Shown: positions 53-18,169 of the stretch, in pieces
Layout: each line of letters opens with the position of its first letter
Numbering within the stretch: position 1 is the stretch's first letter
Virus genome (UHGV): UHGV-1338014
Strand: one strand, 5' to 3'
DNA length: 34,123 nucleotides
Origin: a virus
Made by a program: the position numbers and the translations under genes
The notes under the pieces: generated by a model
What the model saw: only the letters and a program-made list of their open reading frames with translations
What the model was told of the DNA's origin: nothing
Database searches by the model: none

Positions 53-230
53 TGTATTGATTCACGTGAAGTACGAAAAAAACCGGGAGGACATTGGATT
101 ATTCGGGATTTGGCGGGATTAGATTTAGTGGGGCTTGCAAGCCTGTAGGATAGATTTTAGCCGTTACATCTTGAAACGCGAAAGATTGTTGGAAACAGCT
201 TTTGATTCATTAAAGACACGAAAAGCAATT
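53..230 (+). promoter_or_regulatory. Left end (attL) with putative transposase-binding sites L1-L3
   Basis: Repeated CGAAA(A)-containing motifs at about 61-82 (TTCACGTGAAGTACGAAAAAA), 160-180 (TTGAAACGCGAAAGATTG) and 199-221 (TTCATTAAAGACACGAAAAGC), spaced as Mu L1/L2/L3; exact site boundaries are approximate. Confidence 0.7.
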
Positions 231-1330: not shown

Positions 1331-3319
1331 ATGAAAGAATGGTATACAGCAAAAGAGTTGCTCGGTTTGGCAGGTTTACCAAAGCAAGCCACTAACATTA
1401 CACGTAAGGCACAAAGAGAAGGCTGGGAGTTCAGGCAGGTTGCAGGAACTAAAGGTGTATCATTTGAATTCAATATCAAATCATTTCCTGTCACATTACG
1501 TGCTGAAATTCTGTTGCAACAAGGGAGAATTGAAACAAGCCAAGGGTATTTTGAAATCGCCCGCCCCACGCTGGAAGCCCACGATTATGATCGCGAGGCG
1601 CTGTGGAGCAAATGGGATAACGCCAGCGATTCCCAGCGCAGACTTGCTGAAAAATGGTTGCCTGCGGTTCAGGCTGCAGACGAAATGCTGAACCAGGGGA
1701 TTTCAACGAAAACGGCTTTTGCGACCGTTGCAGGGCATTACCAGGTCAGCGCATCCACTTTGCGGGACAAGTATTACCAGGTACAGAAGTTTGCGAAACC
1801 TGACTGGGCGGCTGCACTTGTTGATGGACGTGGAGCATCCCGTCGCAATGTTCACAAAAGTGAATTTGACGAGGATGCCTGGCAGTTTCTGATTGCAGAT
1901 TATCTGCGACCGGAAAAGCCCGCCTTCCGCAAATGTTATGAGCGTCTGGAACTGGCAGCCCGCGAGCATGGCTGGAGTATTCCCTCCCGTGCCACGGCCT
2001 TTCGCCGGATTCAGCAACTGGACGAGGCAATGGTTGTTGCCTGTCGTGAAGGTGAACATGCACTGATGCATCTGATACCAGCACAGCAGCGAACTGTGGA
2101 ACACCTGGACACCATGCAGTGGATCAACGGCGACGGTTATCTGCATAACGTCTTTGTACGCTGGTTTAACGGTGATGTGATCCGTCCAAAAACATGGTTC
2201 TGGCAGGATGTGAAAACCCGAAAAATTCTGGGCTGGCGCTGCGATGTGAGCGAGAACATTGATTCAATTCGCCTCTCGTTCATGGATGTTGTGACTCGCT
2301 ACGGTATCCCGGAGGATTTTCACATCACCATTGATAACACCCGTGGTGCTGCGAATAAATGGCTGACGGGAGGCGCGCCCAATCGCTACCGCTTTAAGGT
2401 AAAAGAGGACGATCCAAAAGGACTGTTTTTACTGATGGGTGCGAAAATGCACTGGACAAGCGTTGTTGCCGGTAAAGGCTGGGGCCAGGCAAAACCTGTT
2501 GAACGTGCTTTCGGTGTTGGTGGGCTTGAGGAATACGTTGATAAGCATCCGGCACTGGCTGGTGCATATACGGGGCCAAATCCGCAGGCAAAACCTGATA
2601 ACTATGGCGACCGCGCTGTTGATGCAGAGCTGTTTCTGAAAACCCTTGCCGAAGGTGTGGCGATGTTCAATGCCAGAACAGGCCGTGAAACAGAAATGTG
2701 CGGGGGCAAACTCTCGTTTGATGATGTTTTCGAGCGTGAATACGCCAGAACGATTGTGCGTAAGCCAACCGAAGAACAAAAACGGATGCTGTTACTGCCT
2801 GCCGAGGCGGTGAACGTTTCACGCAAAGGCGAGTTTACGCTTAAAGTTGGCGGCTCCCTTAAAGGCGCGAAAAACGTTTATTACAACATGGCGTTAATGA
2901 ATGCCAATGTGAAAAAAGTTGTGGTCAGGTTTGATCCACAGCAGTTACACAGCACGGTTTATTGTTACACCTTGGATGGTCGGTTTATATGTGAAGCGGA
3001 ATGTCTGGCACCTGTTGCATTTAATGATGCTGCGGCAGGCCGCGAATATCGCCGCCGCCAGAAACAACTGAAATCTGCAACTAAAGCAGCCATTAAGGCG
3101 CAGAAGCAAATGGACGCGCTGGAAGTTGCTGAACTGCTGCCGCAGATAGCCGAACCAGCAGCGCCAGAATCAAGGGTTGTTGGTATTTTCCGGCCTTCCG
3201 GTAACACGGTGCAGGTGAAATACCAGGAACCCGATGATGAATATGAAACTGATCGTGATGAATATCTGAATCATTCGCTGGATATTCTGGAACAGAACAG
3301 ACGTAAAAAAGCCATTTAA
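1331..3319 (+). CDS. A: DDE transposase MuA (662 aa)
   Basis: Size and position as Mu A; N-terminal winged-helix end-binding region, central DDE core region, C-terminal basic tail; translation closely resembles Mu A as I recall it. Confidence 0.95.
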
Positions 3320-3357: not shown

Positions 3358-4296
3358 ATGAATATTTCCGATATTCGCGCAGGACTGCGCACGCTTGTAG
3401 AAAGTGAAAAAGCGACTTATGCACAAATTGCACGCGAGTCTGGCGTGGCCGCAGGAACGTTAAGCGCATTCGTGAATAACAAGTACAACGGCGACAATGA
3501 ACGTGTTGCGCAGACGCTGGAACGCTGGCTGGAGAACTATCACCGTGCCGCAGAGCTGCCAGAACCACCACGTTTTGTGGAAACCAGAACAGCACGCCAA
3601 ATCTGGACGAGTATGCGTTTTGCCAGCCTGACTGAAAGTATTTCTGTTATCTGCGGTAATCCAGGTGTGGGAAAAACTGAAGCGGCCCGCGAATTTCGTC
3701 GCACCAATAACAATGTCTGGATGATCACCATTACCCCATCCTGTGCCAGTGTTCTGGAATGCCTGACTGAACTGGCTTATGAACTGGGAATGAATGACGC
3801 ACCACGCCGTAAGGGGCCACTCTCCCGCGCTTTGAGACGCCGTCTTGAAGGTACGCAGGGGCTGGTCATTATCGACGAAGCTGATCATCTTGGCGCTGAG
3901 GTTCTGGAAGAACTCCGCCTGTTACAGGAGTCCGCCCGTATTGGCCTTGTTCTGATGGGGAATCACCGCGTTTATTCAAACATGACCGGTGGTAACAGAA
4001 CGGTTGAATTTGCCCGACTGTTTTCCCGTATTGCCAAACGGACGGCAATCAATAAAACCAAAATTGATGATGTAAAGGCCATTGCGGATGCCTGGCAGAT
4101 TACCGGCGAAAATGAGCGGGAATTATTACAGCAGATTGCGCAAAAACCAGGTGCGCTTCGCATCCTGAACCACTCGCTGCGCCTTGCGTCCATGACCGCC
4201 CACGGCAAAGGTGAACGTGTTAATGAAGATTATCTGCGTCAGGCTTTCCGTGAATTAGACCTGGACGTTGATATTTCAACTCTGCTGCGCACGTAA
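3358..4296 (+). CDS. B: Transposition target-DNA activator MuB (AAA+ ATPase, 312 aa)
   Basis: Directly downstream of A; Walker A motif GNPGVGKT and Walker B-like VIIDEAD; length as Mu B. Confidence 0.93.
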
Positions 4297-5267: not shown

Positions 5268-5567
5268 GTGGTGACCGGAATGATGTGTAAGCGTAAACGC
5301 TGGTCACGCGAAGACCGGGAATTTATCGAAGCCAGTGTCGGGAAAATGACCGTCGAGGAAATGGCGAAAAAACTGAACGTTGCCACAACCGCTCTCCGGG
5401 CACATGCCAGAAGGTACGGAATATCGTTGTGTGTTTACCGAATCAGTGAGCACGACAAATATTTGTGTCGTGAACTTTATAAAGAAGGGCTGGCTATTCA
5501 TGTCATTGCCCAAAAGATGGAATTAAGCAATCGTGCTGTATCCAGTATTGTATACAGCGAATATTAA
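5268..5567 (+). CDS. Hypothetical small protein with helix-turn-helix-like segments (99 aa)
   Basis: ORF beginning at GTG 5268 (alternative ATG 5280); the segment MTVEEMAKKLNVATTALRAHARRYGIS looks like an HTH. Confidence 0.5.
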   Translation: MVTGMMCKRKRWSREDREFIEASVGKMTVEEMAKKLNVATTALRAHARRYGISLCVYRISEHDKYLCRELYKEGLAIHVIAQKMELSNRAVSSIVYSEY

Positions 5568-5587
5568 TTAACAGGAGCTTTATTTAT

Positions 5588-6112
5588 ATGGCTAAGTCAG
5601 CAAAACGAATCAGGAACGCCGCAGCGACTTATGTTCCGCAATCCCGAGATGCCGTGGTATGTGATATCCGCCGGATTGGTGACCTGCAACGCGAAGCAGC
5701 ACGACTTGAAACGGAAATGAATGACGCTATCGCCGAGATTACAGAAAAATACGCCTCACAGATTGCGCCACTTAAAACCAGTATTGAAACCCTTTCAAAA
5801 GGCATTCAGGGATGGTGTGAAGCGAACCGTGACGAACTGACGAACGGCGGCAAGGTGAAGACGGCAAACCTGGTAACCGGTGATGTGTCATGGCGTCAGC
5901 GCCCACCATCAGTAAGTATTCGCGGTGTGGATGCGGTAATGGAAACGCTGGAGCGTCTTGGCCTGCAACGTTTTATTCGCACGAAACAGGAAATCAACAA
6001 GGAAGCGATTTTACTGGAGCCGAAAGCGGTCGCAGGTGTTGCCGGAATTACAGTTAAATCGGGCATTGAAGATTTTTCTATTATTCCATTTGAACAGGAA
6101 GCCGGTATTTAA
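5588..6112 (+). CDS. gam: Gam host-nuclease inhibitor / DNA-end-binding protein (174 aa)
   Basis: Length and position as Mu Gam; translation resembles Mu Gam as I recall it (Ku-like end-binding protein). Confidence 0.85.
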   Translation: MAKSAKRIRNAAATYVPQSRDAVVCDIRRIGDLQREAARLETEMNDAIAEITEKYASQIAPLKTSIETLSKGIQGWCEANRDELTNGGKVKTANLVTGDVSWRQRPPSVSIRGVDAVMETLERLGLQRFIRTKQEINKEAILLEPKAVAGVAGITVKSGIEDFSIIPFEQEAGI

Positions 6113-6210
6113 TACCACCATTAATATTTAATTAATTCACACTCTTTTAATTATGGCGCGATGCGTCAGGGGATTGCTCGCGCCTGAATCTGATATCTGA
6201 GAAATAAAAA

Positions 6211-6741
6211 ATGATTGATGCAAAAATTCTGAACGGTGTCAGCACATTACTACGGGCTTACGGGCGTCTGACCTGTGGCGTTCTGGCTGAAAAAATGAAG
6301 ATGCCTCCCTCGTCAATGGTGTATTTCCTGCGTGATGCAGTTGATGCCGGAATGCTGACAGAATGCAACGGATTTTATGACGTTCCGCGCCCTCGTCCGA
6401 CGCCGCCAGTAAGACGAAACGCAACAACGGAACATCCCGATGTTGATGATGCTCGATGGTGCGCGTTCCGCCGCTCTTTGCCCTGGCTGGAAGGCAATGC
6501 TATTCCGGCACTGGCAAAAGAATTTGCGACAGGCGTACTGACCTGCGAGTCGGTTTACATCGTTGCAGAAGTGGGCGACGAGATGTGCAAACAGGGAATG
6601 CCCCGTTTTGTGATGGCGTATATCGATATCCGGCAGGGACGTTTTATTTGTGGCTCCAGTGGCAGGAATATCACCGACCACGTCCTGCGCTATCTCATTC
6701 TTGATTATTCACCGGCTCCGGTAGCGGTTGGCATCCAGTGA
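6211..6741 (+). CDS. Hypothetical protein with N-terminal winged-helix-like region and Pro-rich linker (176 aa)
   Basis: ORF with RBS; not recognisable as a canonical Mu early gene; function unknown. Confidence 0.5.
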   Translation: MIDAKILNGVSTLLRAYGRLTCGVLAEKMKMPPSSMVYFLRDAVDAGMLTECNGFYDVPRPRPTPPVRRNATTEHPDVDDARWCAFRRSLPWLEGNAIPALAKEFATGVLTCESVYIVAEVGDEMCKQGMPRFVMAYIDIRQGRFICGSSGRNITDHVLRYLILDYSPAPVAVGIQ

Positions 6742-6770
6742 AATCTTTTATTGCGAAGAGGTATTACGAA

Positions 6771-7160
6771 ATGAATAACGCAGAGAAAAATGAAATTCAA
6801 TCCACATCTGTCACTACCAGAAAACATCTTTATGATTTTTATGTCGCCTATAACCAGTGGTTAAAAAATGGTGCACCAGAAACAGAGGGGGAATTATTTG
6901 TCCGGTATTTTGGATTATGTAGCAATGCTTATAGTTATTTCGAATCCATCGGAGCATACGGCGAAGATGCAGCAGAACAATTGCGCACAGATTTTATCGC
7001 GAACGGACTGGATGAATTATTGCCTTTCAATGAGGACAGCGCGCACTACAAGGAAGAGTGCAGGTTTGAAAGGTGTCACCTGAATCTTGGTCGTGTGGCA
7101 TGGGTGGAAAAACACTGCATGAAGGAGATGGGGCAAAATGAGTCGCACATCCCTGATTAA
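6771..7160 (+). CDS. Hypothetical protein, AT-rich gene (129 aa from ATG 6771; frame open from GTG 6738)
   Basis: Visibly lower GC than neighbours; GAAGAGG RBS before ATG 6771; 3' end overlaps the gemA start. Confidence 0.5.
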   Translation: MNNAEKNEIQSTSVTTRKHLYDFYVAYNQWLKNGAPETEGELFVRYFGLCSNAYSYFESIGAYGEDAAEQLRTDFIANGLDELLPFNEDSAHYKEECRFERCHLNLGRVAWVEKHCMKEMGQNESHIPD

Positions 7161-7689
7161 ATTAATTCATGTCGCCCGGCGTGATCTACAACTCGACGAT
7201 GACACTTACCGCGCCTTTCTGGTGCAGTTCACGGGCAAAACCAGTTGCCGCGAGCTGACCGTCGCACAACTGGAACAGGTGCTCGATGCCATGAAAGAGC
7301 GCGGTTTTAAGAAGCAGAAAAAACATCCCCGCCGTCGCTTTAAGGGGCATGTCACACCGCGTGAGAAGATTTATAAAATCTGGCAGCAGATGTTTCAGGA
7401 TGGCTTTGTCGCTGATGGCAGTGATGCTGCGCTGGACAAATACGTTGCACGCCTGACGGCCAGACGTAATGGCGGTCAGGGTGTTTCCACGCTGGCCTGG
7501 TGTCACGGGGAATCGTTGCATGTTGTGCTCGAAACGCTCAAACAGTGGCATATGCGCTGCATCCGGGACGCCTTTGCCCGACATGGTGTGCCTTTACCTG
7601 TGAGCGAAACCGGGCGGGAGCTGCGCGGCTATGATGCACTGACCAGTGCGTATGCCCGCGCACGAAACAGCGGGAGAATTGCTGTATGA
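7138..7689 (+). CDS. gemA: GemA-like early protein (183 aa)
   Basis: Length matches Mu GemA and it sits immediately upstream of the Mor/C-family gene with start/stop overlap. Confidence 0.75.
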   Translation: MSRTSLIKLIHVARRDLQLDDDTYRAFLVQFTGKTSCRELTVAQLEQVLDAMKERGFKKQKKHPRRRFKGHVTPREKIYKIWQQMFQDGFVADGSDAALDKYVARLTARRNGGQGVSTLAWCHGESLHVVLETLKQWHMRCIRDAFARHGVPLPVSETGRELRGYDALTSAYARARNSGRIAV

Positions 7690-8096
7690 AACAGATGAAA
7701 GAGCAGGATTTATTCGAAGACTTCCGGGACGACAGTGTTCTGGAATATCTTCACGATTATCAGGAAAAATATGTTTACCCGGCGCTACTTTCAGAGCTGA
7801 ATGCTCTGCTGCGACAGGAACTGATAAGGCTTGGTGTTAACCCTGCCCACTCTCTTGAGCTGGTAGTGGCAATTTGCAATCATATCGGAGGGATTCAGGT
7901 ATATGTTCCGAAAGGGAAAATACTGGAAAATCTGATCAGAGACATGCGCATCTGGCGTGATTTTGATGGAAAAAACGTAGCAGAGTTGGTGCAGCGTTAC
8001 AAAGTGACCTACAAAACGGTATATCAGGCCATCAAAAGAATGCGAAGGCTGGAGCGTGGAAAATATCAAATGCAACTATTTAAGGATGAGCCATGA
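7686..8096 (+). CDS. mor: Mor/C-family transcriptional activator (136 aa)
   Basis: C-terminal region (HSLELVVAICNHIGGIQVYVPKG...NVAELVQRYKVTYKTVYQAIKRMRR) fits the Mor/C activator family; called mor rather than C because it directly follows gemA. Confidence 0.7.
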   Translation: MKQMKEQDLFEDFRDDSVLEYLHDYQEKYVYPALLSELNALLRQELIRLGVNPAHSLELVVAICNHIGGIQVYVPKGKILENLIRDMRIWRDFDGKNVAELVQRYKVTYKTVYQAIKRMRRLERGKYQMQLFKDEP

Positions 8097-8572
8097 AATA
8101 CTTTCCTCTTATGTTTTTACTGAGCGTATTTTGCGCTAATGCGGCAAAGCTGCCCTCTGAAGAGGTAATCAAAAAACGCCTGGCCGAAAAAGACCTCATT
8201 GCACTAAATAGCTGGAAGCCTCTTAAAGGGGGCGATTCAATTAAGAACGGTGGAACCGAAACTGCTCACAGCAAGTTTGGATTGTTTATGATTAATAATA
8301 AGGTCGTTAGTTCAACGACGACTGTAAAAGATTTTGATGATAATCCTGTAGGCGCTCTGCCCTCCTTTGCTGCATGTTCGCGGGTTGTTGAATCTGTAAT
8401 TGGTCAATTAACTGAAGAACAGCAGGAACGAGTTATTGACATGGTGGCTTCCGCAGCAAAAGTTAAAGGTTACGGACTAACGTATAAGATTCTGGGCTTT
8501 CACATTCAGACAAAGTTTCTCCCTATGGGGAAAAATATGATGATAGATTGCTCCATCAAAGGTGATGAGTAG
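8093..8572 (+). CDS. Secreted or periplasmic protein of unknown function (159 aa), AT-rich gene
   Basis: N-terminus MKYFPLMFLLSVFCANA|AK is a classical signal peptide (basic residue, hydrophobic core, A-x-A site); the ATG overlaps the stop of the upstream activator gene; followed by a strong intrinsic terminator. Confidence 0.6.
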   Translation: MKYFPLMFLLSVFCANAAKLPSEEVIKKRLAEKDLIALNSWKPLKGGDSIKNGGTETAHSKFGLFMINNKVVSSTTTVKDFDDNPVGALPSFAACSRVVESVIGQLTEEQQERVIDMVASAAKVKGYGLTYKILGFHIQTKFLPMGKNMMIDCSIKGDE

Positions 8573-8671: not shown

Positions 8672-9268
8672 ATGGAAAATCAAAAATTCTCCCCGGCCTT
8701 TGAACATGCGCTGAATTTTATTCAGCGTCCCGATATCGAAGGCGTCTATGTCAATGACCCCACTGACCGTGGCGGCGAAACCAAATACGGCATTTCTGAC
8801 CGCCGCGACGGTGTGATTGACGGCAAAACCGATGTCAGCGGCGACGGTAAACCGGATACCCGCATCAGGGATTTAACCCGCGAACAGGTCGCGCAGATTT
8901 ACTGGCGCGATTACTGGCTGCCTGCCGGATGTGATCAGTGGCCTGATGGCGTGGCGATCTTTGTGTTCGATGCAGCCGTTCAGCATGGCGTTAAAAAAGC
9001 TATCAGGATTTTGCAGGAAGCCGCTGATGTGGATGCTGACGGCATCATCGGCCCGCGTACCCGTAAGGCCGTGAGTCTGTCCACCCCGGACTGGTTGCTG
9101 GCCCGCTGCATTGTCCGTCGTTCCCGCTTTTATGCCGACATCATCAAGTCAAAACCCGCCCAGGGTAAATACCTGAACGGCTGGTTTAACCGCATGGAAA
9201 AGCTGACCGACGCCTGTCTGGAAATCATCGATACCCCTTTAGGCATCATGTCCGCCACGCGGGGGTGA
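8672..9268 (+). CDS. lys: Putative endolysin (GH108-like lysozyme domain plus peptidoglycan-binding domain, 198 aa)
   Basis: N-terminal DPTDRGGETKYGI and C-terminal DGIIGPRT motifs are typical of the GH108 / PG_binding_3 architecture; first gene after the terminator, in the Mu lys position. Confidence 0.7.
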   Translation: MENQKFSPAFEHALNFIQRPDIEGVYVNDPTDRGGETKYGISDRRDGVIDGKTDVSGDGKPDTRIRDLTREQVAQIYWRDYWLPAGCDQWPDGVAIFVFDAAVQHGVKKAIRILQEAADVDADGIIGPRTRKAVSLSTPDWLLARCIVRRSRFYADIIKSKPAQGKYLNGWFNRMEKLTDACLEIIDTPLGIMSATRG

Positions 9269-10711: not shown

Positions 10712-11001
10712 TCAGAGCCAACTGGCCCATTCTGTGGGCATTGCTGATGACAGGAATAAACCTGCTTCAGTTGATACTGGCGAAAACCTACGTCAAACGT
10801 GAAGAGTTTGATTCACTCCGTTCCCGCGTGTCGGTGATGGAAAGCCAGGTACACCATTTACCTGACCGTGATGAGTTCCACCGCCTGCAACTGGATATCA
10901 GCAATCTGCGGGGAGAAATCAAAGAACTGGGGCCATCCATCCGCCAGGTATCCCGCATCAGCGATTTGTTATTAGAGAACGAGTTAAAGGAAAAAAATTA
11001 A
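10696..11001 (+). CDS. Membrane-anchored coiled-coil protein (101 aa)
   Basis: N-terminal hydrophobic helix (WPILWALLMTGINLLQLIL) followed by a predicted coiled coil; function unknown (could be a spanin-like or assembly protein). Confidence 0.5.
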   Translation: MSWEMIRANWPILWALLMTGINLLQLILAKTYVKREEFDSLRSRVSVMESQVHHLPDRDEFHRLQLDISNLRGEIKELGPSIRQVSRISDLLLENELKEKN

Positions 11002-11294
11002 TGGCGATGAAAGAGATCCTCACTGAAGACCGTCGTCTGGTGTTACTGCGTTCCCTGCTGGACTGTGGCGACAGCGCGAATGAATCCGTGTTGCAGACCT
11101 GCCTTCAGGCTTACGGTCATAAGGTATCCCGTGATGTGGTGCGCACTCAGCTTGCATGGCTTCGCGAGCAGGGGCTGGTTCGTCTGTCTGATGTGGGCGG
11201 CTGTTACGTGGCTGAAATCACCGGCAGCGGCGAGGATGTGGCAAACGGCCTGTCCAGCGTTCCGGGCGTTAAAAAACCCCGTGCGAGGGACTGA
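11001..11294 (+). CDS. Hypothetical protein, possible winged-helix fold (97 aa)
   Basis: ORF with start overlapping the upstream stop; function unknown. Confidence 0.5.
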   Translation: MAMKEILTEDRRLVLLRSLLDCGDSANESVLQTCLQAYGHKVSRDVVRTQLAWLREQGLVRLSDVGGCYVAEITGSGEDVANGLSSVPGVKKPRARD

Positions 11295-11296
11295 GC

Positions 11297-11584
11297 ATGG
11301 CCCGAAAACTGAAGCCGTTAAGTCGCGGAGAACGGGCCGTCGTGCGGCAACTGGCGTACTGCCTTGTGCTGGCAGATATTGAGCAAAACGCCATTGTCCG
11401 TGCATACGAAAAACAGACAGGAAAGCCCTGGAACCCGGATGCACCGGATACCCCCATGAAACGCGCCCTGCGATCATCACCGGCATGTGCGCGGCTGTGG
11501 AAGCTGTTAAGTAAGGATATTCAGTCCGTTCGTGAAGAAATATACGCCGGTCTGAAAACGCAGAGGTCTGAAGATGGAAAATGA
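11297..11584 (+). CDS. Hypothetical protein (95 aa)
   Basis: ORF immediately upstream of the small terminase gene. Confidence 0.5.
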   Translation: MARKLKPLSRGERAVVRQLAYCLVLADIEQNAIVRAYEKQTGKPWNPDAPDTPMKRALRSSPACARLWKLLSKDIQSVREEIYAGLKTQRSEDGK

Positions 11585-12155
11585 ACAACGCCCCACCCGT
11601 GGCCGTCTTTCCAAAGTGGATTTACTCCCGGACAGCATCCGGGAGCAGTTACATCAGATGCTGCGGGAAAAGCGGCACACGCAGGAAGAAATCCGCGAAG
11701 CCATCAACACCCTGATTGACGAACACAACCTGCCGGAAGAGATGCAGTTAAGCCGGACGGGCTTAAACCGCTATGCCAGCCGTATGGAAAAAGTCGGGGC
11801 CAAAATCCGCGCCTCCCGCGAGATGGCCGAGGTCTGGGCGGCAAAGCTGGGTTCCGCGCCGACGTCAGACGTCGGCAAGCTGCTGATGGAGTTTGTAAAA
11901 ACGCTGGCCTTTGAAACGTCCATGTCGATGGCAGAAGACGACAAGCCCGTTGCACCGAAGGCGCTGGGCCAACTGGCGCTGGTTGCCCAGCGTCTGGAAG
12001 CAGCCGCCATGACCAGCCATAAACGCGAGAAAGCGATCCGCGATGCGTTTGCGCAGGAGATGGCAGAAAAAACCGAAGAGCTGGTCAGAACGGGCGGTCT
12101 GTCAGGCGGTGCGGCTGACACCATCAAACGGGACATTCTGGGGATTAGCGCATGA
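11574..12155 (+). CDS. Terminase small subunit, Mu gp27-like (193 aa)
   Basis: Position immediately upstream of large terminase with overlap; size and charged helical composition typical of Mu-like small terminase. Confidence 0.7.
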   Translation: MENEQRPTRGRLSKVDLLPDSIREQLHQMLREKRHTQEEIREAINTLIDEHNLPEEMQLSRTGLNRYASRMEKVGAKIRASREMAEVWAAKLGSAPTSDVGKLLMEFVKTLAFETSMSMAEDDKPVAPKALGQLALVAQRLEAAAMTSHKREKAIRDAFAQEMAEKTEELVRTGGLSGGAADTIKRDILGISA

Positions 12156-13687
12156 CACAGATGAACACGTTCAGTGAATCCGATGTTCTGCTGCCGTATC
12201 AGAAACGCTGGGTTGCGGATGATTCAAAACTGAAAATCGCCGAGAAATCCCGCCGTACCGGTTTAACCTGGGCAGAAGCGGCAGATGCGGCACTGACCGC
12301 ATCACTGAAGAAGGAAAACGGCGGGAGCGATCACTTTTATATCGGTTCGAATAAGGAGATGGCCCGCGAATTTATCGACGCCGTGGCAATGTGGGCGAAA
12401 GCGTTTAATGCGGCAGCAGAAGAAATCCGCGAGGAAGTGATCACCGACGAAGACAAGGACATTCTGACGTTCGTCGTGTACTTCGCCAGCGGATTTAAGG
12501 TCAAGGCGCTGTCCAGTAATCCGGGCAACATTCGCGGGATGCAGGGGAATGTCACCATCGACGAGGCGGCGTTTCATGAACAACTGGATGAGGTACTCAA
12601 GGCGGTCACACCACTGACCACGTGGGGCGGTAAGGTTCGCCTTATCTCTACCCATGACGGCGTGGACAACCCGTTTAACCAGCTGATTCAGGAAAGCCGC
12701 GCAGGCAAAAAAGATTACCGTATTCACACCATCACGCTGGATGATGCCTGCAATGACGGGCTGTACCGGCGTATCTGTCAGGTGCGCGGCATGGTGTGGT
12801 CACCGGAGGCCGAGGCGGAATGGAAAGAAGGTCTGCTGAGAAATACCGCCACCCGCGAAGACGCCCTGGAGGAATACTACTGCGTCCCGAAAAACGGCGG
12901 CGGCACGTATATCCCTCGCTCACTGCGTGAACGTGCGGCCCGTGGCACCGGGAAAGTGTTGCGCTTTACCGGCACACCGGAATTTAACGCACTGACAGAA
13001 AGCCAGCGCCGGGCAGAAATCCGGGAATGGCTGGAGACGGTGGTGCGCCCCGAGCTGGAAAAACTCCCGAAGAACCTGCGCCACTGTCTGGGGGAAGACT
13101 TTGCGCGTTCGGGTGACCTGACCGTACTGGCCCCTGTGACGGTGAACGATGACACCACCCGCGAGGTGCCGTTCCTGGTTGAGCTTGGCAATGTGCCGTT
13201 TAAACAGCAGGAGCAGGTGCTGTTCTGGCTTTGCGATCGTCTGCCCCGTCGTGACGGTATCAAAATGGATGCACGGGGGAATGGTCAGTATCTGGCAGAA
13301 CAGGCGGCGGAGCGGTACGGCGATGAGGTGGAACAGGTGATGCTGTCCGTGGCGTTCTACCGCGAAAACATGCCCCGTTTCCGTGCAGCGTTTGAAGATG
13401 ATGAGCTGATCCTTCCGAAGCATGAAGACGTGATCAATGACCTCGGGGCCATTCAGTTACTGCGTGGTGTTCCCGGCATTGACGATGCCCGTACTAAAGG
13501 TAGCGATGGCCGCAAGCGTCACGGCGATGCCGCTGTGGCCATTTTCCTGGGCTTCCTTGCCAGCAAGGATGACTGCCACCGTTACGAGCTGCACCGCCTG
13601 AACCGCCCGGCGAAACCGGAAGAAGGCAACACGCGCCGCCAGATGAAACTGACACGCGGCCTGAAAAATGAGGGAGGTTTACTGTGA
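12152..13687 (+). CDS. Terminase large subunit, Mu gp28-like (511 aa)
   Basis: Size and position; N-terminal ATPase region and C-terminal nuclease-like region with acidic residues (GEDFARSGDLTVL). Confidence 0.85.
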   Translation: MTQMNTFSESDVLLPYQKRWVADDSKLKIAEKSRRTGLTWAEAADAALTASLKKENGGSDHFYIGSNKEMAREFIDAVAMWAKAFNAAAEEIREEVITDEDKDILTFVVYFASGFKVKALSSNPGNIRGMQGNVTIDEAAFHEQLDEVLKAVTPLTTWGGKVRLISTHDGVDNPFNQLIQESRAGKKDYRIHTITLDDACNDGLYRRICQVRGMVWSPEAEAEWKEGLLRNTATREDALEEYYCVPKNGGGTYIPRSLRERAARGTGKVLRFTGTPEFNALTESQRRAEIREWLETVVRPELEKLPKNLRHCLGEDFARSGDLTVLAPVTVNDDTTREVPFLVELGNVPFKQQEQVLFWLCDRLPRRDGIKMDARGNGQYLAEQAAERYGDEVEQVMLSVAFYRENMPRFRAAFEDDELILPKHEDVINDLGAIQLLRGVPGIDDARTKGSDGRKRHGDAAVAIFLGFLASKDDCHRYELHRLNRPAKPEEGNTRRQMKLTRGLKNEGGLL

Positions 13688-15255
13688 ACCTGAAACAACT
13701 GGCCGGAGCCGTTCGCCGTCTGCTGAACCCGGCAACCGGTGAGGAAGATACGCTGAAAAAAGAGAGGCTCGATGAAGTACAGGCCCGTCCGCGTCAGGCA
13801 GGTGTGCGCTCGGCCTCGCCGGGCATCAGTATCGCTTCCGGGCTGAATCCCGGCAGGCTGGCAGGTATTCTGCGCAATGCTGCCGACGGTATCACACGTG
13901 ATTTTTTTATCCTTGCCGAAGAGATGGAAGAACGCGATTTGCATTACGCTTCGGTGTTGCGCACCCGCAAGCTGACGGTAGCCGGTATCGAACCGGTGGT
14001 GGTTGCCGCCAGTGATGACGATGCCGACGTGCAGCTGGCGGACGCCATCCGGGCGCTGATGGACGCTCCGCAAATTCCCGAACTGTTGTTTGATTTGCTC
14101 GACGGGCTGGGAAAAGGTGTGGCGGTCTGTGAAATTCTCTGGAACACCCGCAACAACCACTGGGTGCCCCGTGATTATGAGTGGGTTGATCCCCGTTTTC
14201 TGAAAGCCGAAAAGCCCACGCTGCGCCAGTTCCGCCTGCTGACTGACGATGAGCCGGTGGATGGCGTACCGCTGACACCGGGAAAATTCATTGTTCACCA
14301 GCCGCGTCTGAAATCCGGTCTGCCGCTGCGTAACGGTCTGGCCCGTCTGGTGGCGGTAATGTACATGCTGAAATCCTTTACCGTACGTGACTGGTGGGCA
14401 TTTGCGGAAAAATTCGGCATTCCGGTCACGGTGGGGAAATACGGCCCCAACGCCACGGAGGAGCAAATCCGCGTGCTGATTGACGCGATTGCCTCCATTG
14501 CCTCGGATGCCGGGTGTGCCATTCCGCAGTCCATGCAACTGGAGATGCAGGAAACCGCCAGCCGGAATAACGGCGGTGCACTGTTCCGTGAAATGGCGGA
14601 ATGGTGTGATGCGCAAATCAGTAAGGCTGTGCTGGGGCAGACCATGACCACGGATAACGGCAGTTCGCGTTCACAGGCGGACGTGCACAATCAGGTGCGC
14701 ATGGACATTGTGCGCTGGGATGCGCGGCAGCTGGCTAACACGCTGAACGAATATCTGGTACGTCCCTACATCGAGGCCAACTACGGGCCACAGGCGCACT
14801 ACCCCCGTGTTGTTCTGCGTATCAGTGAAGCAGAAGATCTGAAGGCGCTGACAGACGCCGTCGTGCCGCTGATTGACCGGGGGCTGCGGGTTCAGGAATC
14901 GGAGCTGCGGGACCGGTTCGGTTTTGCTGAACCGGATGAAGGGGCGGAAGTTCTGCATCCTGTGTCTGCCGGGGTGCCAGGTGATATGGCGATGAACCGT
15001 GAGCGCGTCGCCCTGAACCGGGAACACCCCGACGAACTGGCACAGATGGTGGATGATGCCCTGCGTGACTGGCAGAAAACCGGCGAGGCGTTCACGAACC
15101 CGGTGCTGACACTGGCGCAGGAATGCGACAGTTTTGATGACTTTCTGAAACGCCTGCCTGAGCTTCAGGAAACGCTGAACGCGGACGACTTTGCCCTGCA
15201 ACTGGCAGAGGTGTGCTTTAAGGCGCGAGCACTGGGAGACACTGCTCATGCGTGA
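13684..15255 (+). CDS. Portal protein, Mu gp29-like (523 aa)
   Basis: Size and position directly after large terminase with overlap. Confidence 0.85.
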   Translation: MNLKQLAGAVRRLLNPATGEEDTLKKERLDEVQARPRQAGVRSASPGISIASGLNPGRLAGILRNAADGITRDFFILAEEMEERDLHYASVLRTRKLTVAGIEPVVVAASDDDADVQLADAIRALMDAPQIPELLFDLLDGLGKGVAVCEILWNTRNNHWVPRDYEWVDPRFLKAEKPTLRQFRLLTDDEPVDGVPLTPGKFIVHQPRLKSGLPLRNGLARLVAVMYMLKSFTVRDWWAFAEKFGIPVTVGKYGPNATEEQIRVLIDAIASIASDAGCAIPQSMQLEMQETASRNNGGALFREMAEWCDAQISKAVLGQTMTTDNGSSRSQADVHNQVRMDIVRWDARQLANTLNEYLVRPYIEANYGPQAHYPRVVLRISEAEDLKALTDAVVPLIDRGLRVQESELRDRFGFAEPDEGAEVLHPVSAGVPGDMAMNRERVALNREHPDELAQMVDDALRDWQKTGEAFTNPVLTLAQECDSFDDFLKRLPELQETLNADDFALQLAEVCFKARALGDTAHA

Positions 15256-16012
15256 AACCCTCATCCCGAAAGAGGTGCTGGCGTGGCTGAAGGCGAAGAA
15301 GCTGCGCCCCGGTTTTGATTACCGGGATGTGTGGCGGGAAGAACACCGGAACAGCTTCACCGTGGCAAAAATGCTGCAACTGGATTTGTTGTCGGATGTG
15401 AAAGCCCTTGTGGAAGACGCCCTGCAAAGCGGGCAGACGTTCAGTGAGTTCCGGGAGGCGCTGCAACCGCTGCTGATAAAACGCGGATGGTGGGGCGTAC
15501 AGGAGATGGATGATCCGCTGACAGGAGAAACGCGCACCGTACAGCTGGGCAGCGACCGCCGCCTCCGCACGATTTTTGATACCAACATGCGCACCGCCCG
15601 CGCAGCGGGCCAGTGGGAACGCATTCAGCGGACAAAACGGGCCATGCCGTATCTGATTTACGAGCTGGGGCCATCCCGCGAGCACCGGGCGGAGCATGTG
15701 AAATGGGCGCGTCTGTGTCTGCCGGTAGATCATCCGTTCTGGCAGACGCATTTTGCCCCTAACGGCTGGGGCTGTAAATGCACCATCCGTCAGGTCAGCC
15801 GTGGTGAATATGCGCAACTGGCGGCACAGGGCACCATTCACACCGAAGCGCCGGAAATCAGAACTGTCCGCTGGGTGAACAAACGCACGGGCGAAGAGGA
15901 AGATGTGCCGGAAGGGATTGATCCGGGCTGGAACTACAATCCCGGCATAAACCGTGAGCAGGAGCTGGCGCGCCAGCTGGCGACAAAACAGGCCCGTTTT
16001 GACAGTGAATAA
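15248..16012 (+). CDS. F: Head morphogenesis protein, Phage_Mu_F domain (about 255 aa)
   Basis: Motif REHRAEHVKWARLCLPVDHPFWQTHFAPNGWGCKCTIRQV fits the Mu F / SPP1 gp7 family; ATG 15248 overlaps the portal stop. It looks shorter than I would expect for Mu F, which I cannot verify. Confidence 0.75.
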   Translation: MRETLIPKEVLAWLKAKKLRPGFDYRDVWREEHRNSFTVAKMLQLDLLSDVKALVEDALQSGQTFSEFREALQPLLIKRGWWGVQEMDDPLTGETRTVQLGSDRRLRTIFDTNMRTARAAGQWERIQRTKRAMPYLIYELGPSREHRAEHVKWARLCLPVDHPFWQTHFAPNGWGCKCTIRQVSRGEYAQLAAQGTIHTEAPEIRTVRWVNKRTGEEEDVPEGIDPGWNYNPGINREQELARQLATKQARFDSE

Positions 16013-16226
16013 CCCTCCCGCCGTAAATCCCCCTGAAATGCATCAGAAACGCGTTTTTTATTCTGATGGCATGAATGTGCATTCTGACGTTTTTGAAGGC
16101 GCTGTGGCGTTTTTGAAGGGGTTTTGAAGGGGGTATTCTTCCCGTTTTCAGTGAAGCCGGTAAATCCGGCTTTTTTTCTGCCTTCCGCATACTGACCGTC
16201 AGTAACCCCAAACGACGGAGACTGAC
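16013..16226. promoter_or_regulatory. Central non-coding spacer: inverted repeat, three tandem (T)TTTGAAGG repeats, terminator, then late promoter region for gene I; candidate strong gyrase site
   Basis: No ORF; IR CATCAGAA-N12-TTCTGATG at 16041..16068; CGTTTTTGAAGG / CGTTTTTGAAGG / GTTTTGAAGG between about 16091 and 16134; terminator at 16155..16177. The gyrase-site idea rests only on position near the genome centre. Confidence 0.45.
16155..16177 (+). terminator. Rho-independent terminator, identical copy of the 8594..8616 hairpin
   Basis: Same AGCCGGTAAATCCGGCTTTTTTT sequence, downstream of F and upstream of I. Confidence 0.75.
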
Positions 16227-17189
16227 ATGCAACCGGAACTGCTGGCGCTGTGTTTTTCCCTGCCAGAACCCATCAATGAGCTGACACCCGCTCAACTGCC
16301 GGAATGGCTTGAACTCGTCCCTGCGGGTGAGTTCACCGGGCGCGATGGCCGGACGTGGATTAACCGCAATCCACATGAGGTGGTTGCCCGTTCGTCCGAC
16401 ATCAAAATTCCGGTGGACATTGAACACGCCACCGAAATTAAAGGCCCGCGGGGTGAAGATGCTCCGGCGTATGGCTGGGTGGAGGAACTGCGGGTGACGG
16501 ACAGCAGCACCATTGAAGGCCGTGTTGTCTGGAGTGAGTCCGCCCGGTGGATGCTGAGCGAGCGCCGCTACCGCTATTACAGCCCGGCGTTTTTCTTTGA
16601 CGCGGACGGTGCGGTGACACGCCTGTCCAGCGTCGGGCTGACCAACAAACCTAACCTGGATTTTCCTGCACTGAATACGGAGAAAAACCCGATGACAGTA
16701 CCTGTGCAAATCACCGGCCTGCTTGGGCTGGCTGAATCCGCCACGGTGGACGATACCGTGGCCGCCATTAAACAACTTCAGGAGAACGAACAGGTGGCGC
16801 TGAACCGCGCACAGACACCTGATCTGACGAAGTTTGTGCCGGTGGAAACCCACAATCTGGCACTGAACCGTGCCGAAACCGCAGAACAACGCCTTCAGCA
16901 ACTGGAAGCTAAGGAAGCAGAAGCGCTTGTGGATGCGGCCATCGAAGCCGGAAAAGTGGCCCCGGCAAACCGTGACATGTTCCTTGCCACCTGCCGTACG
17001 GAAGAAGGCCGCAAACAGTTTGCGGAGTACACCAGAGGTGCACAGCCGCTGGTGAACAACGACAAGCCCAGCCAGGGCAAGGATAAACCCGCGCAGACAC
17101 TGACCGACGCCGAACTGGCGATGTGCCGCAGCATGGGTATTACCGGGGAAGAGTTCCTCGCCGCTAAACCAAAACAGGAGAATAACTGA
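16227..17189 (+). CDS. I: Head maturation protease / scaffold, Mu I-like (320 aa)
   Basis: Position before the major head gene; Ala/Glu-rich coiled-coil C-terminal half typical of scaffold. Confidence 0.8.
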   Translation: MQPELLALCFSLPEPINELTPAQLPEWLELVPAGEFTGRDGRTWINRNPHEVVARSSDIKIPVDIEHATEIKGPRGEDAPAYGWVEELRVTDSSTIEGRVVWSESARWMLSERRYRYYSPAFFFDADGAVTRLSSVGLTNKPNLDFPALNTEKNPMTVPVQITGLLGLAESATVDDTVAAIKQLQENEQVALNRAQTPDLTKFVPVETHNLALNRAETAEQRLQQLEAKEAEALVDAAIEAGKVAPANRDMFLATCRTEEGRKQFAEYTRGAQPLVNNDKPSQGKDKPAQTLTDAELAMCRSMGITGEEFLAAKPKQENN

Positions 17190-18091
17190 TGGGAGCAGTC
17201 ACTTCCGAAGTCCTTCACGCGCTGACCACCTGTCTGAGCGCCGCTTATACCCGTGGTCTGAGTGGTGTCACCCCACAGTGGCAGCGTATCGCCTCTGAAA
17301 TCCCGAGTTCGTCCGCCTCCAATACCTACGGCTGGATGAAGGATTTACCGGAGATTAAAGAATGGGTCAGCGCCCGTCAGATGGCAACGCTGGACGGTTA
17401 TGGTTACACCCTTGCGAACAAAACCTGGGAAAGTTCGATCCGCGTTAAACGCGAACACATTGAAGACGATCAGATTGGTCAGTACAGCATTATCGCTGAA
17501 CGCTATGGCCGCCAGACGTCGGAGTTCCCGGACAAGCTGTGTTACCCCCTGCTGTGTGCCGGGTTTAACACCCTGTGTTTTGACGGTCAGAACTTCTTTG
17601 ATGAAGACCACCCGCTGGGCGACGGCACCTGCAGCAACGTTGTCGGCACCCCGGCATCAGACCAGGGAGAACCGTGGTTCCTGATTGATGATTCTCAGGT
17701 ACTGAAACCCATCATCTGGCAGACGCGACGCGCCTTTAAGTTTGAAGCCCTGGATGATCTGAACAGCGAGCACACCTTCAAGAATAACGAGTTCCTTTAC
17801 GGGGTGGACGGTCGCTGCAATGCGGGCTTTGGCTTCTGGCAGACCGCCGTCGGTTCCCGTGCGGCACTGACAGCGGAGAACTACGAGAAGGCCAGCAATC
17901 TGCTGCTGGGTATGAAGACCACCAACGGTGAACCGCTGGGCATCCGCCCGACCACCCTTGTGGTGGGACCGAAAAATCGCGCGGCTGCGAAGCGCATCAT
18001 TGACGCCATGCTGGTAAACGGCGGCGATTCCAACATCTGGTACAAGGATGTGGACATCGTGGTCAGTCCGTTCATCACCACCCCGGCATAA
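17189..18091 (+). CDS. T: Major head (capsid) protein, Mu T-like (300 aa)
   Basis: Size and position after protease/scaffold; start overlaps the I stop. Confidence 0.85.
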   Translation: MGAVTSEVLHALTTCLSAAYTRGLSGVTPQWQRIASEIPSSSASNTYGWMKDLPEIKEWVSARQMATLDGYGYTLANKTWESSIRVKREHIEDDQIGQYSIIAERYGRQTSEFPDKLCYPLLCAGFNTLCFDGQNFFDEDHPLGDGTCSNVVGTPASDQGEPWFLIDDSQVLKPIIWQTRRAFKFEALDDLNSEHTFKNNEFLYGVDGRCNAGFGFWQTAVGSRAALTAENYEKASNLLLGMKTTNGEPLGIRPTTLVVGPKNRAAAKRIIDAMLVNGGDSNIWYKDVDIVVSPFITTPA

Positions 18092-18117
18092 CCCGTCATC
18101 CGTAATCTGTAACCCGC

Positions 18118-18149
18118 AGTTAAAAGGCGCTATGAATGCCCTTTTAACT
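18118..18149 (+). terminator. Stem-loop downstream of major capsid gene (AGTTAAAAGG...CCTTTTAACT)
   Basis: 10-bp inverted repeat about 27 nt after the T stop, followed by TTTTAAAA; possible attenuator or mRNA-stabilising hairpin. Confidence 0.4.
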
Positions 18150-18169
18150 GCCTTTTAAAAGGCAGAGTC

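What the first reader, a model, noticed from the sequence alone, without database searches (positions are those of the whole stretch)
6113..7160. Accessory two-gene module with low GC between gam and gemA
The interval between gam and gemA appears much shorter than I would expect from Mu and holds only two ORFs. One is a 176-aa protein with a winged-helix-like N-terminus and Pro-rich linker. The other is a distinctly AT-rich 129-aa ORF, suggesting recent horizontal acquisition. The module is preceded by an AT-rich spacer and a 7-bp-stem hairpin (6155..6184) that could be its own promoter/terminator unit. Such early-region cargo is a good candidate for an uncharacterised anti-defence or host-modulation function.
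Basis: partly seen in the sequence, partly recalled or inferred. Interest (0 to 1): 0.7.

Follow-up and report, generated by a model that had tools for sequence, protein, structure and literature searches.

The report
Mu gp11 plus a swapped-in accessory gene
The stretch between gam and gemA of this Mu-like prophage holds one conserved Mu early gene (gp11) and one swapped-in gene from a widespread, unstudied family of small phage proteins, an ordinary case of phage mosaicism and not a self-contained imported module.

Summary
The sequence features are real: a 1025-bp gam-gemA interval (Mu has 1907 bp), two ORFs of 176 and 129 aa, a 7-bp-stem hairpin at 6155-6184, and ORF2 at 42% GC between neighbours at 53-55%. 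The "two-gene module" reading fails.

- **ORF1** is the orthologue of Mu gp11 (87% identity, Pfam Gp11_C). It is a function-unknown gene kept in nearly all Mu-like prophages examined.
- **The AT-rich spacer and hairpin** are 96% identical to Mu. The hairpin follows the gam stop in all 15 Mu-like loci examined, whatever gene comes next, so it belongs to gam's 3' flank.
- **ORF2** is the only real cargo. It occupies the slot that holds gp14/gp15 in Mu. Its boundaries lie at the gp14 start codon and exactly at the gemA ATG.

ORF2 belongs to a ~100-aa all-helical domain family with no Pfam entry, no annotation and no solved structural relative. The family has 682 representative clusters, forms tandem paralogue arrays in lytic phages, and is sometimes fused to zinc ribbons, once to a Lar-type one. 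ORF2 is under purifying selection (dN/dS 0.30) but evolves faster than its neighbours.

The interval is a recombination hot spot, with at least 12 length classes in E. coli genomes. Function is inferred only: most likely an early accessory protein that binds a host factor, possibly for anti-restriction or anti-defence. Interest is modest.

The parts
5588..6112 (+). gam (host-nuclease inhibitor), the left anchor of the interval
   Evidence: Pfam PF07352 1.3e-43. It is 86% nt identical to Mu gam-gp11 over 5588-6728.
6113..6210 (+). 98-bp gam-gp11 spacer, AT-rich (36.7% GC), conserved core Mu sequence
   Evidence: Same length as in Mu and 96% mean column identity across Mu and three E. coli prophages. 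GC.
6155..6184 (+). Conserved hairpin (7-bp GC-rich stem plus inner pairs) linked to the 3' side of gam; role unknown; no T-run after it
   Evidence: Fold energy -17.6 kcal/mol, z -2.42. Exact stem arms occur 43 bp after the gam stop in all 15 Mu-like loci, whatever gene follows. Not called as a terminator. No Rfam match.
6211..6741 (+). ORF1 = orthologue of Mu gp11 (Mup11), 176 aa. Putative winged-helix N-domain, Pro-rich disordered linker, beta-rich Gp11_C domain. Function unknown.
6722..6734 (+). Deletion/recombination joint at the 3' end of gp11. Relative to STEC388-type prophages, 163 bp are missing (the 60-aa gene), which gives this gp11 an aberrant C-terminus (…VAVGIQ).
   Evidence: BLAST blocks: window 5588-6721 and 6735-7689 match L003 1001-2123 and 2287-3241. 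C-terminal difference seen in alignment A5.
6771..7160 (+). ORF2, 129 aa, acidic (pI 4.9). A single ~100-aa five-helix domain (residues ~15-118) of an unannotated phage family; this is the variable cassette.
   Evidence: - Family size: phrog_6418 4.5e-43 and phrog_2510 4.8e-28; 682 representative clusters at E <= 1e-3.
- No annotation: no Pfam, NCBIfam or PDB sequence match.
- Selection: dN/dS 0.30.
- Translation signal: SD-like AAGAGG 9 nt upstream of the ATG (sequence).
7123..7160 (+). 3' end of ORF2. It carries the gemA Shine-Dalgarno sequence (AAGGAG, 7123-7128) and overlaps gemA by 23 nt. The last 7 ORF2 codons (NESHIPD) are read from the gemA 5' end in another frame.
   Evidence: Sequence. 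Homology to Mu and cS51a resumes exactly at 7137/7138. Unrelated 111-aa cassettes in STEC1575 and SA53-3 end in the same ...NEPHIPD tail. Residues 123-129 are disordered in the model.
7138..7689 (+). gemA, the right anchor of the interval
   Evidence: PF06252 1.6e-34. 81% nt identity to Mu gemA starting at its ATG.

Best explanation
The interval is the hypervariable part of the Mu semi-essential early region, here in its shortest observed form. Three things occupy it.

1. **gp11.** A near-universal Mu early gene of unknown function. It has a probable winged-helix N-domain, a disordered Pro-rich linker and the Gp11_C domain. The conserved gam-proximal spacer and hairpin precede it.

2. **A single swapped-in cassette, ORF2.** It sits in the slot that holds gp14, gp15 and the semi-early promoter region in Mu. 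gp12 and gp13 are absent, and a 163-bp deletion has removed the 60-aa gene found in the closest relatives. The cassette was exchanged by recombination at gene boundaries: the left joint is at the gp14 start and the right joint is exactly at the gemA ATG.

3. **Expression (inferred).** ORF2 is read from the long early Pe transcript. It is translated from its own SD, and its 3' end supplies the SD for gemA and overlaps the gemA start, so gemA translation would be coupled to it.

**Function of ORF2 (inferred, not shown).** It is a 15-kDa acidic five-helix protein. It most likely acts stoichiometrically early in infection or induction by binding a host protein. It is not needed for the Mu core cycle, since Mu lacks it. 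My single most likely target class is a restriction or other nucleic-acid-directed defence system (about 0.35). Modulation of some other host DNA-metabolism factor is next (about 0.3).
For: **Identity of gp11**
- 87% identity to Mu gp11.
- PF25754 scores 126.9 bits against a cutoff of 27.
- More than 220 homologous clusters, all carrying Gp11_C.

**Spacer and hairpin are core Mu**
- Alignment with Mu and three prophages.
- Exact stem arms in all 15 Mu-like loci.

**Mosaic slot**
- Gene-family table of the interval in ten Mu-like genomes, four more variants, and at least 12 span classes from 2102 to 3567 bp.
- Junction coordinates.
- The shared NE(S/P)HIPD tail of unrelated cassettes.
- dS between ORF2 alleles is 0.48, against 0.16 in adjacent gemA, which indicates allele exchange.

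**ORF2 is a real folded protein**
- dN/dS 0.30.
- AF2 pLDDT 89, five helices.
- 682 representative clusters.

**Accessory, host-interaction character**
- Members lie in arrays of small early genes: the lambdoid nin-like region, the early region of an N4-like contig, and phAPEC8.
- Tandem paralogue arrays: 4 in 8.3 kb of phAPEC8 and 7 on one 10.3-kb locus (5 of them in tandem).
- ORF2 evolves faster than gam, gp11 and gemA (0.30 against 0.10-0.18).
- pI 4.88.
- Fusion to a Lar-type restriction-alleviation zinc ribbon in P0026, and to other zinc ribbons in the JCKP02 231-aa protein, P0071 and P0174.

**Operon expression**
- All genes are on one strand with overlaps, and promoter-like and terminator-like hits do not exceed the shuffle expectation.
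- Pe is known to drive a long early transcript through the semi-essential region (PMC3820752).
Against: - There is no functional evidence of any kind for ORF2 or its family. Every source name is 'hypothetical' or 'prophage protein'.
- The Lar fusion is one protein, barely above Pfam's cutoff (29.3 against 28.6 bits), inside promiscuously shuffled lambdoid mosaic proteins. It is a weak guilt-by-association clue.
- An invariant Cys (C50), N105 and R108 could point to catalysis or ligand binding and not to simple protein binding.
- No anti-defence HMM library was available to test membership.
- Transcription through the interval was not measured. A weak internal promoter cannot be excluded.
Confidence: 0.6

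Rival explanations
1. ORF2 serves the phage's own DNA transactions or regulation and not host defences. It could be an 'arm'-like helper of transposition-replication, or a partner or modulator of GemA/Mor, whose translation it is coupled to.
For: - It lies between gam and gemA in the region where classical replication-enhancing and gem functions map (own knowledge of the Mu literature).
- It overlaps gemA by 23 nt and carries the gemA SD.
- Family members are fused to zinc ribbons, which often bind nucleic acids.
Against: - Mu, D108, SfMu and most Mu-like prophages lack ORF2. Only 14 of 5426 E. coli genomes carry it.
- Other, unrelated cassettes occupy the same gemA-overlapping position, so the coupling belongs to the slot and not to ORF2.
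- The family is common in non-transposing lytic phages: phAPEC8-like, N4-like and others.
Confidence: 0.15
2. ORF2 benefits the lysogen as a prophage-encoded exclusion or defence function, expressed at a low level from the prophage.
For: - Low-level Pe transcription across semi-essential genes in Mu lysogens has been reported, with the suggestion that some of these genes benefit the host (PMC3820752).
- It sits in a variable accessory position with lower GC, like a moron.
Against: - The family is abundant in strictly lytic phages, often in multiple copies.
- There is no PADLOC defence match beyond noise (E 0.043).
- It has no promoter of its own by the scan.
- In this phage the Mu semi-early promoter region upstream of gemA is absent.
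Confidence: 0.1
3. One reading: ORF1, ORF2, the spacer and the hairpin form one recently acquired two-gene accessory module with its own promoter/terminator.
For: - The interval is short and its composition is uneven.
- A hairpin and an AT-rich stretch do precede ORF1.
Against: - ORF1, the spacer and the hairpin are conserved in Mu itself at 86-96% identity.
- The hairpin follows gam whatever gene comes next.
- ORF1 has typical early-region GC (52.7%).
- The recombination joints flank ORF2 only.
- No promoter or terminator is called.
Confidence: 0.03
4. ORF2 is a decaying remnant or a spurious ORF with no function.
For: - The surrounding interval shows deletions (the 163-bp loss, the altered gp11 C-terminus).
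- Some related prophages are degraded: STEC388 has a frameshifted gam and internal stops.
Against: - dN/dS is 0.30 at dS 0.48.
- The intact 129-aa frame is kept in alleles of 75-81% identity.
- The exact protein occurs on 213 contigs.
- The AF2 fold is confident.
- 682 homologous clusters exist.
Confidence: 0.02

Closest known systems
Bacteriophage Mu gp11 (Mup11; Pfam PF25754 Gp11_C; PHROG 1949)
   Same: ORF1 has the same length (176 aa), 87% identity, the same position directly after the gam spacer, and the same domain layout.
   Different: The last ~6 residues differ (…VAVGIQ instead of …AAVQEVA) because of a downstream deletion joint. The function of the family is itself unknown.
Mu gp12-gp15 block and Mu_54 / semi-early promoter region (Mu 6954-8232)
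   Same: It occupies the same interval between gp11 and gemA on the same strand. The ORF2 start codon aligns with the gp14 start codon of the cS51a-type prophage, and about 36 nt are shared there.
   Different: There is no protein similarity between ORF2 and gp12 (BLASTP E 0.77), and ORF2 does not cluster with gp14 or gp15 at BLASTP E <= 1e-5. gp12, gp13, gp14, gp15 and the annotated promoter region are all absent from the window.
PHROG 6418 / PHROG 2510 (phage proteins of unknown function) and the 231-aa protein of the E. coli JCKP02 Mu-like prophage
   Same: They share the ~100-aa helical domain with the motifs FYxAYxxWxxxGA, GLCxN, PFN and (C)HxNxxRxxWV. The JCKP02 protein lies in the same gam-gemA interval (61% identity over 108 aa).
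   Different: ORF2 is the bare domain plus short tails. The JCKP02 protein adds a 57-aa N-extension and a C-terminal zinc ribbon identical in type to Mu gp13. Other members are tandem repeats of the domain or mosaic lambdoid proteins.
Lar (Rac prophage restriction-alleviation protein, Pfam PF14354) and lambda Ral-type early anti-restriction proteins
   Same: They are small, non-essential, early-expressed prophage accessory proteins. One ORF2-family member (P0026) carries a Lar-type domain at its C-terminus.
   Different: ORF2 itself has no Lar domain and no zinc ribbon. There is no sequence or fold similarity, and the link is by fusion in a single protein only.
Acidic DNA-mimic anti-restriction proteins (Ocr, ArdA)
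   Same: Small, acidic (pI 4.9), early, non-essential.

Membership tests
Mu gp11 family (PF25754 Gp11_C / PHROG 1949), tested for ORF1 | Sequence match to the Gp11_C model above Pfam's gathering score | tested here: met
   126.9 bits against a cutoff of 27, covering model positions 1-78 of 78. phrog_1949 3.6e-98.
Mu gp11 family (PF25754 Gp11_C / PHROG 1949), tested for ORF1 | Full-length orthology to Mu Mup11 | tested here: met
   150 of 173 residues identical (87%), with one 1-aa gap.
Mu gp11 family (PF25754 Gp11_C / PHROG 1949), tested for ORF1 | Synteny: the first gene after gam and its conserved 98-bp spacer | tested here: met
   In SfMu, JCKP02 and YpM_3 one extra gene is inserted before it.
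Unannotated ~100-aa helical phage domain (PHROG 6418/2510), tested for ORF2 | Profile match over the whole domain, with the conserved motifs (F23, W30, G48-L49-C50, P85-F86, N105, R108, W111) | tested here: met
   phrog_6418 4.5e-43. HMMER profile search and alignments A3 and A4.
Unannotated ~100-aa helical phage domain (PHROG 6418/2510), tested for ORF2 | Shared fold with other members | tested here: met
   Foldseek against BFVD gave 14 phage proteins at E <= 1e-3, TM 0.65-0.73, all uncharacterised.
Mu gp12 / gp14 (the genes ORF2 replaces) | Protein sequence similarity | tested here: not met
   BLASTP against gp12 gives E 0.77. ORF2 does not cluster with the gp14 (E) or gp15 (F) families at E <= 1e-5.
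Lar restriction-alleviation family (PF14354) | Match to the Lar zinc-ribbon model | tested here: not met
   ORF2 has no Pfam hit at E <= 1. Only the fusion protein P0026 has the Lar domain, outside the ORF2-like part.
Known anti-phage defence proteins (PADLOC-DB) | Match to a defence-system model | tested here: not met
   Only a noise-level hit for ORF2 (HEase, E 0.043, 11.3 bits). None for gp11.
Known anti-defence protein families (Ocr, ArdA, Acr, Tad, Gad and others) | Sequence or fold match to a characterised anti-defence protein, or demonstrated inhibition of a defence system | tested here: inconclusive
Intrinsic terminator / sigma-70 promoter (for the hairpin and spacer) | GC-rich stem followed by a T-run; or -35/-10 hexamers with correct spacing | tested here: not met
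   No site was called in 6113-6210. The stem is followed by TGAATCTGATATCTG.

The most novel reading that the evidence does not exclude
The ORF2 domain would define a large, unnamed family of phage counter-defence (for example anti-restriction) proteins. The features consistent with this reading are:
- no Pfam entry and no solved relative;
- 682 representative clusters;
- tandem paralogue arrays in lytic phages;
- recurrent fusion to zinc ribbons, including one of Lar type.

On this reading, Mu-like prophages swap ORF2 in and out of the gp14 slot as their hosts' defences change.
Probability: 0.25. Interest if true: 0.65.

Novelty: new member of a known kind. Interest (0 to 1): 0.3.

Why it matters
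It matters modestly.

The analysis shows at base-pair resolution how the semi-essential early region of Mu-like phages is rebuilt. Cassettes are exchanged at fixed joints (the gp14 start and the gemA ATG), around a constant gam-hairpin-gp11 core.

It also flags a widespread ~100-aa phage domain that no curated library searched here names or assigns a function. The domain behaves like a fast-diversifying host-interaction module. If a family member were shown to block a defence system, hundreds of hypothetical phage proteins would gain a function.

The specific locus is otherwise an ordinary variant of a well-known phage region.

Tried and rejected
**Annotation of ORF2**
- Pfam, NCBIfam and PADLOC scans of ORF2 and of 46 family members gave nothing.
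- PDB sequence searches, single and profile, found nothing for either protein.

**Structure searches**
- afdb50 Foldseek was not available.

**RNA and regulatory signals**
- Rfam on 5400-7800 gave only a noise hit.
- Folding the whole spacer gave z -0.78. Only the isolated hairpin stands out.

**Literature leads**
- I considered that ORF2 might be the published anti-Tmn protein (Dhillonvirus). I rejected this because that protein has a C-terminal beta-sheet and a restricted distribution (PMC11846954).
- I checked the T4 TadIV-1 sponge paper and the polyvalent-protein paper for links. There were none.

**Other ideas tested**
- Metal binding by the C50/C102/H103 residues: rejected, because positions 102 and 103 vary across the family.
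- Mu gp13 as a Lar homologue: it gives only sub-threshold generic zinc-ribbon hits.
- The 140-aa GTG start for ORF2: rejected in favour of ATG 6771. That codon aligns with the gp14 start codon of relatives, has an SD, and is the RefSeq call.

Full report
**Context**

The window is a Mu-like prophage read from its left end. The Mu attL terminal sequence TGTATTGATTCACgTGAAGTACG lies at 53-75. It is followed by:
- a repressor-like gene on the minus strand;
- ner, A (1331-3319) and B (3358-4296);
- small early genes;
- gam (5588-6112), the two ORFs of the finding, gemA (7138-7689) and mor (7686-8096).

The closest public relatives over 5588-7689 are the prophages of E. coli E300082 and TD225-C4 (98.6-98.7% identity, full length). 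Mu and D108 match at 85%, but only over gam-gp11 and gemA.

**Checking the observation**

- *Interval length.* The gam-gemA interval is 1025 bp here and 1907 bp in Mu.
- *ORFs.* It contains two sense ORFs, 6211-6741 (176 aa) and 6771-7160 (129 aa). RefSeq annotates the same two genes in E300082.
- *Hairpin.* It is real: GGCGCGA at 6155-6161 pairs with TCGCGCC at 6178-6184. Alone it folds at -17.6 kcal/mol with z = -2.42. The whole spacer is unremarkable (z = -0.78).
- *Composition.* ORF2 is 42.3% GC, against 52.7% (gp11) and 55.1% (gemA). The early region as a whole averages 48.0% (sd 4.9), and ner, mor and the ORF after mor are equally low. ORF2 is at the 16th percentile of its own region and the 5th of the whole window. 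So it has a lower GC than its neighbours but is not a striking outlier.

**ORF1 is Mu gp11**

- It is 87% identical to Mup11 over its whole length.
- It hits Pfam Gp11_C at 126.9 bits (cutoff 27) and PHROG 1949 at 3.6e-98.
- It has more than 220 homologous clusters in E. coli and Salmonella, all carrying the same Pfam domain and all unnamed.
- dN/dS against Mu is 0.10-0.13, like gam (0.11) and gemA (0.135).

The AlphaFold model is weak overall (pLDDT 58.6). It shows three N-terminal helices (4-45), a disordered region at 56-89 that contains PRPRPTPPV, and a better-defined beta-rich C-domain (pLDDT about 80).

**The spacer and hairpin are core Mu, tied to gam**

The 98-bp spacer has the same length as in Mu. 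It shows 96% mean column identity across Mu and three E. coli prophages.

The exact hairpin arms occur in all 15 Mu-like loci I fetched, always 43 bp after the gam stop. This holds whether the next gene is gp11, a 184-aa gene annotated DUF5420 (SfMu, JCKP02, YpM_3) or a 76-aa ORF (SA53-3).

No promoter or terminator is called there, and no T-run follows the stem. It is therefore not a private regulatory unit of a downstream module. Its role is unknown. A 3' stabiliser or processing site for gam mRNA is a reasonable guess.

**The interval is a recombination hot spot, and the window has its minimal form**

Clustering the annotated genes of ten Mu-like genomes gives these arrangements:

| Genome | Genes between gam and gemA |
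|---|---|
| window | gp11, ORF2 |
| STEC388, RM9088 | gp11, 60-aa gene, ORF2 |
| cS51a | gp11, 60-aa gene, gp14, gp15(-) |
| Mu | gp11, gp12, gp13, gp14, gp15(-) |
| D108 | gp11, gp12, gp13, gp14 |
| YpM_5 | gp11, gp12, gp13, G-family 102-aa gene, gp14, gp15(-) |
| SfMu | 184-aa gene, gp11, gp13, G-family 102-aa gene, gp14, gp15(-) |
| YpM_3 | 182-aa gene, gp11, gp13-like 63-aa gene, G-family 102-aa gene, gp14 |
| JCKP02 | 184-aa gene, gp11, 231-aa ORF2-domain protein, G-family 77-aa gene, gp14 |

Four further E. coli variants add other combinations. They include a DUF2513 gene, G-family 111-aa cassettes, and one genome (SA53-3) without gp11.

Across the 90 E. coli genomes with a match, the span from the gam start to the gemA end ranges from 2102 bp to at least 3567 bp, in at least 12 classes. 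The 2102-bp window type occurs in two genomes.

**Junctions**

- Homology to Mu ends at 6728 and resumes exactly at the gemA ATG, 7138.
- Relative to STEC388, the window lacks 163 bp (the 60-aa gene). This also gives its gp11 an odd C-terminus.
- Window 6735-6806 matches the cS51a sequence that spans the end of its 60-aa gene and the start of gp14. ATG 6771 therefore aligns with the gp14 start codon.
- The last seven ORF2 codons (NESHIPD) are read from the 5' end of gemA in another frame. Unrelated G-family cassettes at the same position end in …NEPHIPD for the same reason. These residues are disordered in the model.
- The ORF2 3' end also supplies the gemA Shine-Dalgarno sequence (AAGGAG, 7123-7128).
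- The region annotated in Mu as a semi-early promoter (8151-8217) has no counterpart here.

**What ORF2 is**

It has no Pfam, NCBIfam, PADLOC or PDB sequence match. It does match PHROGs 6418 and 2510, both of unknown function.

An exhaustive HMMER search found 682 representative clusters (140 at E <= 1e-10) sharing a ~100-aa domain, corresponding to ORF2 residues ~15-118.
- Invariant or near-invariant positions are F23, Y27, W30, G48-L49-C50, P85-F86, N105, R108 and W111.
- None of 46 members hits any Pfam family.
- The AlphaFold model is confident (pLDDT 89, pTM 0.80) and shows five helices.
- It matches only uncharacterised proteins of Achromobacter, Burkholderia, Rhizobium, Delftia, Klebsiella, Pectobacterium and E. 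coli phages in BFVD.
- tblastn finds the family in 243 phage records, with 3-5 copies in phAPEC8-like phages.

*Architecture.* Of 185 members examined, 133 are single-domain proteins and about a dozen are tandem duplications or triplications. The rest are mosaic proteins, mostly lambdoid and some annotated DUF551. They include one fused to a dATP/dGTP pyrophosphohydrolase domain, one fused to a Lar restriction-alleviation zinc ribbon (29.3 bits against a cutoff of 28.6), and several fused to other short zinc ribbons. The JCKP02 protein is an ORF2 domain fused to the Mu gp13 zinc ribbon.

*Genomic context.* Members lie in runs of small early genes:
- the nin-like region of a lambdoid prophage;
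- the early region of an N4-like contig, between gp2 and RNAPII;
- arrays of 4 paralogues in 8.3 kb of phAPEC8, and 7 on a 10.3-kb locus of a metagenomic phage contig, five of them in tandem.

*Selection and abundance.* ORF2 alleles show dN/dS 0.30 with dS 0.48, while adjacent gemA has dS 0.16 between the same two prophages. This means purifying selection, faster protein evolution than the neighbours, and allele exchange. The protein is acidic (pI 4.88). The exact sequence is already public on 213 contigs as 'hypothetical' or 'prophage protein'. Only 14 of 5426 complete E. coli genomes carry the gene.

**How it most likely works**

*Shown:*
- gene identity for ORF1;
- the cassette structure and its joints;
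- a real, constrained, folded ORF2 protein;
- membership in a large unannotated phage family with paralogue arrays and zinc-ribbon fusions.

*Inferred:*
- expression from the Pe early transcript, which is known to run through the semi-essential region (PMC3820752);
- translational coupling to gemA;
- a non-essential, stoichiometric host-binding role.

My preferred target class is restriction or other nucleic-acid-directed defence (about 0.35), then other host DNA-metabolism modulation (about 0.3). A phage-internal role linked to replication or gem is about 0.15, and a lysogen-benefiting exclusion function is about 0.1. Nothing here demonstrates any of these.

**Verdict**

The finding is a correct description of the sequence with an over-reaching grouping. 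One of the two genes and the upstream spacer and hairpin are ordinary conserved Mu. The other gene is an uncharacterised cassette in a region long known to hold dispensable genes of largely unknown function, and shown here to be variable. It is a new member of a known kind, and interest is about 0.3. The most useful by-products are the unnamed domain family and the fixed recombination joints.

Noticed in passing
window 6155-6184; also L001 2068-2097, L009 3068-3097, L017 668-697 and others: A hairpin with invariant arms (GGCGCGA…TCGCGCC) lies 43 bp after the gam stop in all 15 Mu-like loci, whatever gene follows. It has no T-run and no Rfam match. It may be a processing or stability element for gam mRNA.
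   Followed up: partly
window 7138-7160; L014 1743-1765; L017 1771-1793: Unrelated cassettes upstream of gemA (ORF2; the 111-aa G-family proteins of STEC1575 and SA53-3) all end in …NE(S/P)HIPD. Their last 7 codons are read from the 5' end of gemA in another frame. This marks a fixed recombination joint at the gemA ATG.
   Followed up: yes
L007 4822-5517 (E. coli JCKP02 Mu-like prophage): A 231-aa protein in the same gam-gemA interval is a fusion of a unique 57-aa N-terminus, an ORF2-type domain, and the Cys-rich zinc ribbon that is the separate 60-aa gp13 in Mu.
   Followed up: partly
P0026 (230 aa, lambdoid mosaic protein); P0071, P0174: ORF2-type domains are repeatedly followed by C-terminal zinc ribbons. 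One of these passes Pfam's Lar restriction-alleviation cutoff (29.3 against 28.6 bits).
   Followed up: partly
L005 (phAPEC8 10764-19081); L020 (metagenomic phage contig) 1260-5315: The ORF2 family forms paralogue arrays: four copies within 8.3 kb of phAPEC8, and seven copies on one 10.3-kb locus of another phage contig, five of them in tandem.
   Followed up: partly
window 6722-6741: This prophage's gp11 ends …VAVGIQ, instead of the …QEVA or …QEVSEHD of its relatives. A 163-bp deletion that removed the downstream 60-aa gene explains the difference.
   Followed up: yes
L017 720-950 (E. coli SA53-3): One Mu-like prophage has an unrelated 76-aa ORF in place of gp11, so gp11 is near-universal and not strictly universal.
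   Followed up: no
window 7000-7137 compared with Mu 8151-8217: The region annotated in Mu as the semi-early promoter upstream of gemA has no counterpart here, and ORF2 coding sequence abuts gemA. gemA and mor may depend entirely on read-through from Pe in this phage.
   Followed up: no
window 8093-8572 and 8672-9268: After mor, Mu's gp18-gp20 are replaced by a 159-aa ORF with a hydrophobic, signal-like N-terminus and low GC (41.7%). It is followed by an ORF that RefSeq annotates as a glycoside hydrolase family 108 protein in E300082. This looks like another variable slot.
   Followed up: no
L003 (E. coli STEC388): The closest relative carrying gp11 + 60-aa gene + ORF2 is a decaying prophage. 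Its gam is frameshifted, and the gp9-like gene and the lysozyme have internal stops. ORF2 nevertheless remains intact.
   Followed up: no
window 53-75: The Mu left-end terminal sequence is present with one mismatch. Bases 1-52 are therefore host flank, and the window starts at the prophage attL.
   Followed up: yes
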